A DNA stretch of 64,000 bases, from the NCBI GenBank assembly GCA_949288805.1, contig CASELL010000003.1, positions 1,789-65,788 of the forward strand, read 5' to 3'. How positions within the stretch are numbered: position 1 is the first letter of the stretch; the number at the start of each line of letters is the position of its first letter. Shown here piece by piece: positions 60,501-63,500 of the stretch. The stretch is from an uncultured Alphaproteobacteria bacterium. GTDB lineage: Bacteria; Pseudomonadota; Alphaproteobacteria; Rickettsiales; UBA1997. The translations under genes were made by a program, and so were the position numbers. Below the pieces are notes generated by a model. The model was not told where the DNA came from. It did not search any database and was given only the letters and a program-made list of their open reading frames with translations.

Positions 60501-63500
60501 TATAACAAAAGCACTGTTATTTCCACACCTTAATGTTGATGTATAATTTAAATTTCTATTACTACCAAGCTCTTTAGAACCCAGAATATTTGATGAGCTC
60601 CATTCTCTGCTTTGATATTGATTATTGGCGCATGTTCTTGGTTTACAATCTTTAACATATATAAAATCTTGATTTCCTAACACTTCATTATTTATAGATT
60701 GACCATTTTTCTTAAGATTATAGTATTTATTGCTAGAATCACAATTTAAAATTATTTTTTTATTATAATATTTATTACCTGTAACATCATTATAATATCT
60801 ATCATTATTACATACAAATCCTCTTTGATAAGAACCATATTTTTTACTACCTATAATAACATTATCTCCTGTTTCATTTTTGTTATTCTTTGTAAAAATA
60901 GGATTATTACTATTTAAATATTGTAATAAAGATTGTTTACAATAAAAATTTGTATAATCACTTTTAGGTATAATAGTCATATTATTATTTGCATCAAACT
61001 CAACCTCTTTAATAAACTCTGATAAAACTAAAGAAAGCTGACCAATATTACTTTCATTGTTTTTTCTATCCAAATCATAAAGAGGTGTTGAAGCATTACA
61101 TGTTTTTGGTATAAAATATAAACCAATATCTCTGTTTTTTAAATTCCAACCACCAACATAATCTTCAGGTAAATTAGCATCAGATATATTACATAACAAT
61201 TTTGGATTTAATACACTATTATATCCACTTGATGGTTGATCTATAGTATTTTCACTATAAGAATCACCAAATTTTGTTGATTTAGCTTCAAGTGTTATTA
61301 AATTACAAAATTCTGTAGTGGCATCAGTACAAACCCCATGTCCAATATCATCAAATGGCATATTTGAAAATATTTTATTCATTTCAACAAGAGACATATT
61401 GCTATTATAGGCATTAATTAATGTTCCTAAATCTTTTATTGTAAAAGTAAATGTTTTACAATTTTTATATAAAACACATCTAGAATTAGCCTCAACAGGT
61501 CCCCAACTTCCATCTTCATAACATTTTCTTGTTGGTTTTACAGCTACATTATTATAATCTTTATATTGAACATATGTTCTAATTTCATTCATTCCATCGT
61601 CATTATAAGTTGAATCGCAAGTTCCCTCAACCTCGATATATTTTAGTCCAGCCTTTGGCCCAGTTGTTTCTGTCTTAAATTGATTTTTAGTTGTAAATAA
61701 AGTTCTTGGCCAATAAGCACCACCAGTAACAAAATCACCTCTTTTGACAGCACCAGTTGCACCATAAGCTTCATCTAAATCTTTTGATTTTAAATTTAAT
61801 AAATTAAATCTATCTTCTCTTGCCTGCTCTTTACCGGTAGAGCCAAGAGTAACATCAATAGATAATATATCACCATTATCTACAAATATACTACTATTTG
61901 TAATATTGTTTCCATAAATATTGTTTGAAAAATTAGTATGATAAATATCTAACATTTCACAAGATCTATAACATGGATCTGTAACACCATCCCACAAACC
62001 TAAACTAGTACAAACCCTGCTTGGTTTTACCTGTTCTTCATTTTCTGTGTCCATATCAACATTTCTTGGATCAACCTTTGTAGCATCATAATATTTTAAT
62101 TTATCATATCTATTAGAAACTATATCTAATTGACTCATAAAATTATTAACTTCTAACTCAGTTCCTCTATTATAATAACCAAATTCTGTCTGACATATTC
62201 CATAAACTTTTTTAAGGTGTTTATATGAATCTTCTATAATATCTCCATAAAAATCAGAAAATACTTTATATATATTTTGACTAAAATTATAACTTGTATA
62301 TAAATTTTCTGATAAAATATCAGAAGAATTTCTTGGAGCAGATACTCTATCCCAATAAGCACCACCAGTATGTTGCCAAACCTTTAAACCAGTATCATTG
62401 TCTACATATCTACCGCCAACCAATTCTTTTGAATATGTATTATAACTTAAATCATTCACTTCTAATTTTCTACATACAAGTCTTTCACAATATCCTTTTG
62501 CTGCATACTGTGTTATAAGATTAACATTGTGTGCATTGTTTCTTATTTCTTCAGGAAAATCAGATATTTGAAAAATACCATTTCCAGATGTTTTTTCAAA
62601 AACACCTATCCAAAAATTATTATTACCATAACTATTCTCGCCATTATGGAAAAATAAATTATTATAGTTCTCATCTATTAATTTTGGAGTAGATGAATAT
62701 ATTGAATCAACAGTCTCCCACTCTCCCAATTGATTACATATTCTTCTTGGATATAAAAATCCATTTGTAGATGTAAAATTATTATCAAAATATTCTTGTT
62801 GTTTTTTATAAAAATTTAAAACAGTTGGATATCTAAGAACACTGTTATAATCTATAGCAACATCAGCTGTTGGTGCTGATAAATATAAAGAAACATTTGT
62901 TCCAGCTGGTCCAAAACCACTTAAACAATACTGTGAAATAACTTCATTAGCAAAATCACCATTTGTTGGTACTGGACCAACCCATGAAGCAAAACCATTA
63001 CTTAATCCTCTTGTATCAATAGAATTAGAATCTATTTCTTGATAATGTTCATAAGATCTATAATCTGTTTCTTTTATTTTTGAATATGAATTAACTTCAT
63101 TTTTTGTAAAATAAGTAGAATAATTATTAATTATTTCTTTTTCATCAACTATTGGTTCTCCAATATTATTATAACCTAAATTTTCACAATAATATCTTTG
63201 ACAAGATAATTCTTCGTTAACTATCTTATATTCGTAGTTTATTTTATTTCCATCTTCATATGCTGTACATATAGCTGTTGGAACACCTAAATTACTACTT
63301 CTCCAATAACCTATACATTCTCCATCAACTATTCCATTATTAGAATCTACACAAAGATGACTAGTATTGTTATCTTCTTTGTCTGCTCCACAATAAATTG
63401 TAGATGGAAACTCTGCATTACCTAATGTTGGAGTATAAAAAACAGAAGGAACGCGTCCTAATATTTTTTCATCCGTTCTCCAAAAATGTTGTTCATAATA

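What the first reader, a model, noticed from the sequence alone, without database searches (positions are those of the whole stretch)
61458..63203. Three consecutive four-Cys modules ending in P-x-R-x-C-x3-G-x-W...C and joined by C-x3-5-C linkers (CCP/Sushi-like logic, but 2-4 times longer)
Seen (track numbering): module 1 runs C263 ... SQYC350 ... YPRRIC413NQLGEW419 ... GYC496, followed by the linker C496-ERLV-C501. Module 2 runs C501 ... HTGGAYWDR ... YGIC594 ... KPSRVC655TSLGLW661DGVTDPC668, followed by the linker C668-YRS-C672. Module 3 runs C672 ... VTGGAYWPR ... GTC786 ... KPTRKC818YEDGSW824GPVEANSRC833, followed by the linker C833-VLYKN-C839. The same linker logic precedes module 1 (C258-QRYY-C263). 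A fourth C-x3-G-W-x7-C-x3-C copy sits near the C-terminus (MICTPNGWVVVDKPACKNRC, nt 58038-58097). Known: CCP/Sushi modules have four Cys, an invariant Trp between Cys3 and Cys4, and 3-8 residue inter-module linkers, but they are about 60 aa long. Inference: this is a repeated disulfide-bonded module. It could be a very divergent or expanded CCP-like fold or a new fold. The repeat structure argues for a real, selected protein rather than a chance ORF.
Basis: partly seen in the sequence, partly recalled or inferred. Interest (0 to 1): 0.7.

Follow-up and report, generated by a model that had tools for sequence, protein, structure and literature searches.

The report
Expanded Sushi-like modules, giant Rickettsiales protein
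The flagged stretch is a real, conserved run of disulfide-type modules inside a roughly 4,000-residue secreted protein of uncultured gut Rickettsiales; the modules look like Sushi/complement-control domains stretched to 2-4 times normal size by insertions, in a protein family nobody has annotated.

Summary
The motif P-x-R-x-C-x3-G-x-W occurs 3 times against 5e-5 expected by chance. Every module Cys is invariant in relatives.

The ORF (57579..63974, minus strand) runs off the window. It is the C-terminal 2,131 residues of a ~4,000-residue protein that has a signal peptide. The family has at least 97 cluster representatives. All named ones are uncultured Rickettsiales or other Alphaproteobacteria, and several of the 12 genome records come from animal or termite guts. 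Pfam and NCBIfam give no hit.

Modules 2 and 3 are true repeats (hhalign 96%, E 4e-9). Module 1 joins them through shorter relatives (~1,900-2,000 residues). These carry the same collinear array with modules of only 80-140 residues.

An AlphaFold model of three such compact modules (pLDDT 91) finds only Sushi-fold proteins at the top of PDB: Eph-receptor CRDs, Crry, CD46, beta2-GPI, C1s (best E 8e-4). In the viral library it finds only herpesvirus complement-control proteins.

The window's own modules are these cores plus large, partly structured insertions. Their own model gives no significant fold match. Sequence membership in Pfam Sushi fails.

Verdict: a new, expanded bacterial variant of the Sushi/CCP fold. 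Its function is inferred only, most likely a surface scaffold or adhesin.

The parts
57579..63974 (-). C-terminal 2,131 codons (plus stop) of a giant Cys-rich gene. The ORF stays open to the window edge at 64000. The full product is about 4,000 residues.
   Evidence: ORF listing. No upstream stop. 97% identity over all 2,131 residues to residues 1869-4004 of P0006. P0006 and P0001 start with Sec-type signal peptides, and P0006 has a hydrophobic hairpin at about residues 1128-1176. Synteny PGK - 63-aa ORF - giant gene - RadC is seen in L014 and L001.
63201..63620 (-). Possible module 0 (C119 'CPAVRYYD' ... GEC220-IGYW ... C236 ... C258). It has extra Cys at 140, 145, 195 and 208. The pattern is CCP-like, but the Trp between C3 and C4 is replaced by Tyr.
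   Evidence: The pattern and its conservation are seen in the alignments. Compact relatives read 'G.C.GFW...P...C......a.W.....n.C.RYsC'. There is no significant profile match to the other modules, so this module rests on pattern only.
63186..63203 (-). Linker C258-QRYY-C263 (family consensus C-x-R-[YF]-x-C).
   Evidence: C, R and C are invariant in A1.
62487..63188 (-). Module 1: C263 ... C350 ... PRRIC413NQLGEW419 ... C496 (234 residues). It carries insertions of about 45 residues between C2 and C3 and about 70 residues between the Trp and C4.
   Evidence: It matches compact module 1 (92-142 residues) at hhalign 99%, E 4e-18, and that alignment shows the C2-C3 insertion. The insertion between the Trp and C4 follows from the C3-C4 spacing: 83 residues here against about 13 in the compact sequences.
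62472..62489 (-). Linker C496-ERLV-C501.
   Evidence: 'CERL.C' is invariant in 6 sequences.
61971..62474 (-). Module 2: C501 ... TGGAYW ... C594 ... PSRVC655TSLGLW661 ... C668 (168 residues). It is the compact module 2 core plus two insertions, at about residues 558-590 and about 603-648.
   Evidence: hhalign M2c-M2 95.7%, E 9.5e-9, 63 columns, with the two gaps visible. M2-M3 96%. In the AF2 model the first ~90 residues of M2 are low confidence. The second insertion is modelled with a helix at pLDDT 69-91.
61959..61973 (-). Linker C668-YRS-C672.
   Evidence: C, R and C are invariant in 23 sequences.
61476..61961 (-). Module 3: C672 ... TGGAYWPR ... C786 ... PTRKC818YEDGSW824 ... C833 (162 residues). 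It is a paralogue of module 2 with a conserved, structured ~75-residue N-terminal insertion.
   Evidence: The AF2 block means for this module are 72-96, mostly above 85, with several strands and two helices. hhalign M2c-M3 91%. The best, non-significant PDB sequence hit is the GABA-B R1 sushi domain, aligned on 'ikPkRkCyedGtWGpv..srC' (E 0.12).
61458..61478 (-). Linker C833-VLYKN-C839.
   Evidence: Both Cys are invariant in 23 sequences.
58038..58319 (-). C-terminal CCP-like remnant: C1886 ... C1930 ... C1962-TPNGW ... C1975-KNR-C1979 (a 90-residue span with the four-Cys pattern). Only the C3-W-C4-linker half (58038-58097) is recognisable.
   Evidence: The motif is present in 22 relatives of the giant form as well as in the window protein. 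hhalign to the C-terminal module of the compact relatives: 86% over 20 columns. That compact module matches M2c at 90.7% and giant M3 at 83.8%. In five compact relatives it hits Pfam Ephrin_CRD at 25.3-28.0 bits against a cut-off of 27. Assigning C1886 and C1930 as C1 and C2 is my inference.

Best explanation
The region encodes a tandem array of Sushi/CCP-fold-like, four-cysteine modules: three certain (M1-M3), one probable before them (M0), and a degenerate one near the C-terminus. They lie inside a ~4,000-residue, signal-peptide-bearing, Cys-rich protein of an uncultured, very AT-rich Rickettsiales bacterium; related MAGs come from animal and termite guts.

Each module keeps the CCP logic: C1 followed by 'P-x-I'-like residues, an (N/G)G-A-x-W turn, G-x-C2-x2-G-[YF], P-x-R-x-C3-x3-G-x-W, C4, then a 3-5 residue linker to the next C1. 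In this lineage the loops have been expanded 2-4 fold by insertions. Some of these insertions are conserved and predicted to fold.

Shown: the repeat relationship, conservation, collinearity with compact relatives, and the Sushi-like fold of those relatives.

Inferred: after Sec export the modules are oxidised into disulfide-stapled beads. These would form an extended, protease-resistant stalk or interaction platform on or outside the cell, used for contact with a host or partner cell. This is how CCP arrays act as spacers and binding modules in animal and viral proteins.

The confidence of 0.7 applies to the structural identification; the functional reading alone would be about 0.4.
For: - Motif and Cys pattern are real and non-random.
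- Cys, Trp, Pro and Arg are invariant across relatives of 34-60% identity.
- Internal repeat: M2-M3 at 96%, E 4e-9.
- Bridging through compact relatives: M1c-M1 99%, M2c-M2 95.7%, M2c-M3 91%, M2c-M1 90%, M1c-M2c 96%, M1c-M3c 96%. The alignments show the window modules as compact cores plus insertions.
- Compact modules are 80-142 residues, with consensus 'CPaI.P..W..W..GGAtF..ASRS..G.Cn..LGFF..P.R.Cd.lGnW..v.NpCvt.C'.
- AF2 of compact M1-M3: pLDDT 91.4, pTM 0.78.
- Foldseek against PDB: ranks 1-32 are all Sushi-fold proteins (Eph CRDs, Crry, CD46, beta2-GPI, C1s, MASP-3, C5b8). Best E is 8e-4 and probability 0.98, with 250+ aligned columns to all-CCP proteins. After rank 32 there is a sharp drop to probability <=0.04.
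- Foldseek against the viral library: the top 5 are all gammaherpesvirus complement-control proteins.
- Sub-threshold sequence hits all fall on the same C3-W-C4 motif and all come from Sushi-fold families: HRM E 0.033 and Ephrin_CRD 0.28, GABA-B sushi 0.12, Sushi 0.013-0.4 and Ephrin_CRD up to 28.0 bits in relatives.
- Export: signal peptides in the full-length relatives, and 123 Cys in the 4,004 residues of P0006.
Against: - The window's own M2-M3 model (pLDDT 74) has no significant fold match. Its best E is 0.37, and the EphA2 CRD hit has probability only 0.47.
- There is no Pfam Sushi hit for the window protein at E<=10.
- A profile of compact module 2 finds nothing in PDB sequences.
- A profile of 20 factor H CCPs aligns to no module above 35% probability.
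- Foldseek E-values for the compact model are modest (about 1e-3), and global TM-scores are low (0.2-0.26), as expected for multi-domain chains.
- The fold of the window modules is therefore transferred by homology, not shown directly.
- Disulfide pairing, localisation and function are untested. No secretion or partner genes are adjacent.
Confidence: 0.7

Rival explanations
1. The modules belong specifically to the Eph-receptor cysteine-rich-domain type (a sushi-like domain plus an EGF-like part) rather than to complement-type CCPs. The array would then be a bacterial relative of that branch.
For: The seven best PDB hits are Eph ectodomains or CRDs. The isolated EphA2 CRD aligns at probability 0.93 over 136 columns. 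Pfam Ephrin_CRD is the only curated model that reaches its cut-off anywhere in the family (28.0 and 27.5 bits against 27). It is also among the weak hits on the window protein.
Against: All-CCP proteins (Crry, CD46, beta2-GPI) and viral complement-control proteins score almost as well and align over more columns. The Ephrin_CRD hits concern the C-terminal module of compact relatives, not M1-M3. The 3-5 residue C4-to-C1 linkers and the tandem beads are typical of CCP arrays (my own knowledge). The two families share one fold, so this is a difference of sub-type.
Confidence: 0.25
2. The modules are a new disulfide-rich fold that only converges on the CCP cysteine/tryptophan pattern. On this reading the fold matches are artefacts of small beta-rich, Cys-rich domains.
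For: No significant sequence or profile link to canonical Sushi exists. The window model has no significant structural match. The modules contain helices and long structured inserts that CCPs lack.
Against: Two independent structure libraries return exclusively Sushi-fold proteins at the top, followed by a sharp drop. Weak sequence hits from four different Sushi-fold families all land on the same motif. The order and spacing of conserved residues in the compact modules follow the CCP consensus.
Confidence: 0.12
3. The pattern is a chance feature of a long spurious or decaying ORF in an AT-rich genome.
For: There is no annotation, no Pfam domain, and the composition is N/K/Y/I-rich.
Against: There are 97 cluster representatives with E<=1e-3, and 41 with E<=1e-30. 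The residues are invariant across sequences of 34-60% identity. Synteny is conserved. The structure models are confident. The motif count far exceeds the shuffles.
Confidence: 0.01

Closest known systems
CCP / Sushi / SCR modules (Pfam PF00084), as in factor H, CD46, Crry, beta2-glycoprotein I and herpesvirus or poxvirus complement-control proteins
   Same: Four conserved Cys per module. A Trp follows 'C3-x3-G-x'. 'G-x-C2-x2-G-[YF]' is present. C1 is often followed by P-x-I/P. Linkers of 3-5 residues join tandem beads. The predicted fold of the compact relatives matches CCP arrays over 250+ columns.
   Different: The window modules are 162-234 residues long instead of about 60, and the compact relatives are 80-142. 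They carry conserved structured insertions and a helix. The Pfam Sushi model does not match, and neither does a factor H CCP profile. The host is a bacterium (Rickettsiales), whereas the family is overwhelmingly metazoan and viral (my own knowledge). Disulfide pairing is unverified.
Eph receptor cysteine-rich domain (Pfam PF25599 Ephrin_CRD; sushi-like plus EGF-like)
   Same: These are the best structural matches to the compact model (E 8e-4, probability 0.98). It is the only curated HMM that reaches its cut-off in the family. It gives weak hits on the window's C818-C833 motif.
   Different: The threshold hits are on the C-terminal module of compact relatives only. The window scores 11.7 bits (E 0.28). 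Eph CRDs are single units next to a ligand-binding domain, not tandem arrays.
Hormone receptor domain (HRM, PF02793) and the GABA-B R1a sushi domains
   Same: Both are Sushi-fold relatives. They give the best, sub-threshold sequence matches to '...P-x-R-x-C-x3-G-x-W...C' (E 0.033; E 0.12).
   Different: The matches are not significant, cover only the last ~25 residues of a module, and the domain context is different.

Membership tests
CCP/Sushi (PF00084) | Match to the family HMM at or above the gathering score (20.7 bits) | tested here: not met
   No Sushi hit for the window protein or for residues 258-839 at E<=10. Relatives score 11.6-16.4 bits. The hmmscan set-up does detect Sushi: a control factor H sequence gave E 5e-157.
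CCP/Sushi (PF00084) | Module length of about 60 residues | tested here: not met
   The C1-C4 spans are 234, 168 and 162 residues in the window. The compact relatives span 80-142 residues.
CCP/Sushi (PF00084) | Four conserved Cys per module and a conserved Trp between C3 and C4 | tested here: met
   M1-M3 have exactly four Cys each with no extras. All of these Cys and W419, W661 and W824 are invariant in the 6-sequence alignment. In the 23-sequence M2-M3 alignment, C594 to C839 and both Trp are invariant.
CCP/Sushi (PF00084) | C1-C3 and C2-C4 disulfide pairing | not testable with these tools
CCP/Sushi (PF00084) | Short (3-8 residue) linkers between C4 and the next C1 in tandem arrays | tested here: met
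   The linkers have 4, 4, 3 and 5 residues (QRYY, ERLV, YRS, VLYKN) and are conserved.
CCP/Sushi (PF00084) | Sushi beta-sandwich fold by structure comparison | tested here: inconclusive
   Window M2-M3 model: best E is 0.37, with an EphA2 CRD hit at probability 0.47 and a CD46 hit at E 0.59. Collinear compact relative: ranks 1-32 in PDB and 1-5 in the viral library are all Sushi-fold proteins, at E 5e-4 to 1e-2. The feature is therefore met for the family but only by transfer for the window.
CCP/Sushi (PF00084) | Profile-profile similarity to verified CCP modules | tested here: not met
   hhalign of a 20-module factor H profile against M0-M4, M1c-M3c and the C-terminal modules gave at most 35% probability.
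Ephrin_CRD (PF25599) | Match to the family HMM at or above 27 bits | tested here: not met
   The window scores 11.7 bits, E 0.28. It is met only for the C-terminal module of two compact relatives, P0109 (28.0 bits) and P0107 (27.5 bits). Three others score 25.3-26.7 bits.
Internal repeat family (this protein) | Significant profile-profile similarity between modules | tested here: met
   M2-M3 96%, E 4e-9. M1 is linked through compact profiles at 90-99%. The direct M1-M3 match is only 43% over 17 columns. M0 and the region 835-1115 are not linked.

The most novel reading that the evidence does not exclude
Rickettsiales harbour an old, lineage-wide, unannotated family of giant secreted proteins built from a bacterial branch of the Sushi/Eph-CRD fold. 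In this family, loop insertions have grown into new structured subdomains. The array may mimic or engage host extracellular CCP-binding systems such as complement regulators or receptors. It may also document a prokaryotic reservoir of a fold usually regarded as an animal invention.
Probability: 0.2. Interest if true: 0.7.

Novelty: new variant of a known kind. Interest (0 to 1): 0.5.

Why it matters
Sushi/CCP modules are classic animal (and animal-virus) extracellular interaction domains. Here a conserved array of them sits in obligately host-associated bacteria, swollen to several times the normal size and invisible to Pfam. That gives three things.

- A handle on a completely unannotated family of 2,000-5,500-residue proteins that takes up roughly 12 kb of a small genome.
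- A candidate host-contact or host-mimicry factor for uncultured gut Rickettsiales.
- A natural experiment in how much insertion a small disulfide-stapled fold can tolerate.

It also shows that compact relatives can be used to decode heavily expanded proteins from AT-rich genomes.

Tried and rejected
- Pfam and NCBIfam on the whole ORF and on residues 258-839 gave nothing above threshold.
- Pfam on four relatives and on the full-length P0006 and P0097 gave nothing above threshold.
- The search for homologous proteins with alignment A1 returned only one protein, so that search was wasted.
- PDB sequence searches with profiles of M3, M2 and compact M2 gave only E>=0.12 or no hits.
- Foldseek with the window's own two-module model gave no hit below E 0.37.
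- hhalign of a factor H CCP profile (recalled from memory, then verified as Sushi by Pfam) against every module was not significant.
- hhalign of M0, of the region 835-1115 and of the giant C-terminal motif against M1-M3 directly was not significant.
- hhalign of giant residues 835-2131 against the C-terminal half of the compact proteins was not significant. I therefore could not tell whether more degenerate modules lie between 840 and 1886.
- Two literature searches found nothing on this family.
- A chance ORF was rejected because of the conservation.
- An OMP-type C-terminal signal was considered, because the protein ends in Phe. It was dropped because relatives end differently.
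Full report
**1. 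The observation**

The ORF listing gives one ORF at 57579..63974 on the minus strand, 2,131 codons, starting at a TTG.
- Linkers C258-QRYY-C263, C496-ERLV-C501, C668-YRS-C672 and C833-VLYKN-C839.
- Motifs PRRIC413NQLGEW, PSRVC655TSLGLW and PTRKC818YEDGSW.
- GGAYW at residues 537 and 751.
- C1962-TPNGW...C1975-KNR-C1979 near the C-terminus.

Modules 1-3 each contain exactly four Cys. In 20,000 shuffles of the protein, P.R.C...G.W is expected 5e-5 times against 3 observed. The longer motif with C4 and the linker is expected 0.001 times against 3 observed. C-x3-5-C alone is only weakly enriched, 11 against 6.2.

One correction is needed. The eight codons upstream of the TTG hold no stop. A 97%-identical protein, P0006, has 4,004 residues, and the window ORF aligns to its residues 1869-4004. 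The window therefore holds the C-terminal 53% of a ~4,000-residue protein.

**2. It is a real, conserved gene**

A word-indexed search found five relatives of 1,314-3,502 residues, one of them labelled 'Rickettsiales bacterium'. A full HMMER scan of 1.84 billion representatives, using a profile of residues 81-840, found 97 proteins at E<=1e-3. Of these, 57 were at <=1e-10 and 41 at <=1e-30.

About 28 of the hits are giant proteins (up to 5,553 residues) that cover the whole profile. About 50 are proteins of ~1,800-2,100 residues that match mainly the first part. All 14 module and linker Cys, the three Trp, and the P and R of the motif are invariant in six sequences of 36-50% identity. All of these except C496 and C501 are also invariant in 23 sequences of 34-60% identity.

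A scan of one genome per GTDB species found 12 loci. All are in uncultured Rickettsiales or Alphaproteobacteria MAGs, with sources including water-deer colon and termite, mouse and other gut samples.

The window has 17-30% G+C. The gene's neighbours in the window are RadC, a DUF2460 protein, ribose-5-phosphate isomerase B, thymidylate synthase, transketolase and an Fe-only hydrogenase. In the near-identical contig L014 the order is PGK, a 63-residue ORF, the giant gene, then RadC, with dnaA, ffh and an ankyrin-repeat gene nearby and no secretion genes adjacent. L001 has the same PGK and small-ORF neighbours upstream.

Full-length relatives begin with Sec-type signal peptides. P0006 has one strongly hydrophobic stretch at about residues 1128-1176 and 123 Cys in all. 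Pfam and NCBIfam find nothing above threshold in the window protein or in P0006.

**3. Are the modules repeats of one another?**

Profiles were built from the six-sequence alignment and compared with hhalign.
- M2 (497-671) against M3 (669-838): probability 96%, E 4e-9, 82 columns. The alignment pairs TGGAxW, the Y-x-x-V-x-G-x-C2 strand and K-P-x-R-x-C3-x3-G-x-W...C4.
- M1 against M3: 43% over 17 columns, the C3-W motif only. M1 against M2: 13%.
- The C-terminal copy and the region 835-1115 match nothing.

The compact relatives resolve the position of M1. They carry the same collinear array after the conserved 'TPRE.GLC.D...CPA..Y' segment, but their modules are only 80-142 residues. Profiles of these compact modules gave:
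- M1c-M1 99% (E 4e-18).
- M2c-M2 95.7%, M2c-M3 91%, M2c-M1 90%.
- M1c-M2c 96%, M1c-M3c 96% (65 columns).
- M3c-M1 81%.

All modules thus fall into one repeat family with two flavours: an 'NGFAxW' type (M1 and compact M3) and a 'GGAxW/F' type (M2 and giant M3). The alignments show the window modules as compact cores plus insertions. There are two in M2 (about residues 558-590 and 603-648), about 45 residues between C2 and C3 of M1, and about 75 residues at the start of M3. A further ~70 residues between the Trp and C4 of M1 follow from the C3-C4 spacing, 83 residues in the window against about 13 in compact M1.

**4. What fold?**

At the sequence level there are only hints. These hints all come from Sushi-fold families and all land on the same C3-W-C4 stretch:
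- HRM E 0.033 and Ephrin_CRD E 0.28 on the window.
- GABA-B R1 sushi domain E 0.12, as the top PDB hit of the M3 profile.
- Sushi E 0.4 and Ephrin_CRD E 0.013 in P0039.
- Sushi E 0.013 in P0109.

The only hits at a curated cut-off are Ephrin_CRD on the C-terminal module of compact relatives: 28.0 and 27.5 bits against 27, with three more at 25.3-26.7 bits.

A negative control matters here. I recalled the human factor H sequence from memory and verified with Pfam that it carries 18 Sushi stretches (E 5e-157). A profile of its 20 CCPs aligned to no module above 35% probability. Membership in the sequence family is therefore not supported.

At the structure level:
- AF2 of window residues 496-840 with 23 sequences gave pLDDT 74.4 and pTM 0.72. 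The 10-residue block means across M3 are 72-96, mostly above 85, while the N-terminal 90 residues of M2 are poor.
- Foldseek against PDB found nothing below E 0.37. The only local matches with low rmsd were Eph receptor CRDs (probability 0.28-0.47, 84-87 columns, rmsd 3.0-4.4). CD46 SCR1-4 was at E 0.59. This is inconclusive.
- AF2 of compact modules M1-M3 of P0089 (279 residues, 24 sequences) gave pLDDT 91.4 and pTM 0.78.
- Against PDB, ranks 1-32 for this model are exclusively Sushi-fold proteins: EphA2/A4/B2/B6 ectodomains and CRDs, rat Crry CCP1-4, bovine CD46 SCR1-4 and 1-2, beta2-glycoprotein I, C1s, MASP-3 and C5b8. Best E is 8e-4 and probability up to 0.98, with 250+ aligned columns to proteins made only of CCPs. 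After rank 32, probabilities fall to <=0.04.
- Against the viral library, the five best hits are all gammaherpesvirus complement-control proteins, at E 4.8e-4 to 2e-2.

The individual E-values are modest. However, the exclusivity in two independent libraries, the motif-level agreement and the residue-order agreement with the CCP consensus all point to a Sushi/CCP-type fold for the family. The window modules inherit this assignment by homology. It is not shown directly for them.

**5. The 'fourth copy' near the C-terminus**

The motif '(K/R)xG(F/L)(F/Y)M..xC-x2-4-G-W...C-K-x-R-C' is present in 22 relatives of the giant form as well as in the window protein. Its profile matches the C-terminal module of the compact relatives at 86%, but over only 20 columns. 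That compact module matches M2c at 90.7% and giant M3 at 83.8%. It is also the module that hits Ephrin_CRD.

In the window, C1886, C1930, C1962 and C1975 give a four-Cys span of 90 residues. The C1 and C2 assignments are my inference. I could not show further modules between residues 840 and 1886.

**6. How it most likely works**

Shown: this is a long, exported, Cys-rich protein. It contains a conserved tandem array of four-Cys modules with short fixed linkers, whose compact homologues fold like CCP arrays.

Inferred from what CCP arrays do in animal and viral proteins (established knowledge): after Sec export and oxidation, the modules form a string of disulfide-stapled beads. This string would serve as an extended, protease-resistant spacer and protein-binding surface. 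The lineage-specific insertions are conserved, and those in M3 and part of M2 are confidently modelled with strands and helices. They would add new surfaces to each bead.

The organism is host-associated: a Rickettsiales lineage whose related MAGs come from animal and termite guts, with an ankyrin-repeat gene near the giant gene in L014. A role in contact with a host or partner cell is therefore the most plausible function. No experiment or gene neighbourhood supports a specific ligand, and how such a protein would cross the outer membrane is unknown.

**7. Comparison and novelty**

The modules work like a CCP/Sushi array and share the Cys/Trp/linker logic. As a member of Pfam Sushi, however, the window protein fails the HMM, the length criterion and the profile-profile test. 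Disulfide pairing could not be tested.

The best description is a new, expanded bacterial variant of the Sushi fold, structurally closest to Eph-receptor CRDs and complement-regulator CCPs, inside an unannotated Rickettsiales-specific family of giant proteins. Two literature searches found no description of it.

Interest is moderate. The fold is known, but the host lineage, the 2-4-fold expansion with structured inserts, and the size and conservation of the family are unusual.

Noticed in passing
window 49785-51089 (-): An Fe-only hydrogenase large-subunit homologue (Fe_hyd_lg_C, E 2e-76, with 4Fe-4S domains) in what appears to be a Rickettsiales genome of about 24% G+C. This suggests an anaerobic, gut- or protist-associated lifestyle.
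   Followed up: no
window 56283-56876 (+) and 56865-57563 (-): A lone DUF2460 gene (E 5e-52) overlaps the end of a RadC-like JAB gene, immediately downstream of the giant gene. I recall DUF2460 as a phage-tail or gene-transfer-agent type protein; this was not checked here. RadC keeps its position next to the giant gene in L014.
   Followed up: partly
window 55348-56175 (-): A 275-residue ORF with a signal-peptide-like N-terminus and a C-terminal '...GFKYLW'. It has no Pfam hit and looks like a small outer-membrane beta-barrel protein.
   Followed up: no
P0006 residues 1128-1176 (outside the window; the equivalent region in P0001 is 'AAGVVTAEGIGLASPAIAACIASAAFVPFIGAIFVAVCSAAAIALSVGL'): A single, very hydrophobic ~50-residue stretch, long enough for a membrane hairpin, lies in the middle of the N-terminal half of the giant protein. 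It has Cys-rich sequence on both sides.
   Followed up: partly
compact relatives P0109 residues 1527-1572 and P0111 residues 1493-1531: Weak beta/gamma-crystallin hits (E 0.003-0.005) lie between the Sushi-like array and the C-terminal module. No counterpart was identified in the window protein.
   Followed up: no
window 57579-58037 (-), residues 1980-2131: A conserved ~150-residue C-terminal domain follows the last C-x3-C linker. The motif 'L(R/A)H(M/G)Q' is shared between giant and compact relatives by eye. It has no family match, and the protein ends in Phe.
   Followed up: partly
L014 6066-6632 (-): An ankyrin-repeat protein is encoded about 3.4 kb upstream of the giant gene in the near-identical strain, next to ffh and dnaA. 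By my own recollection, ankyrin-repeat proteins are common in host-associated bacteria; this was not checked here.
   Followed up: no
P0005 residues ~560-620 and P0008, inside module 2: Some relatives carry an extra Cys-rich insert ('CSLNQGLCKEKCINLGNNASDCDKKCSKDSLKSVKC') in the C2-C3 loop of module 2. The same loop has therefore been expanded repeatedly and independently.
   Followed up: no
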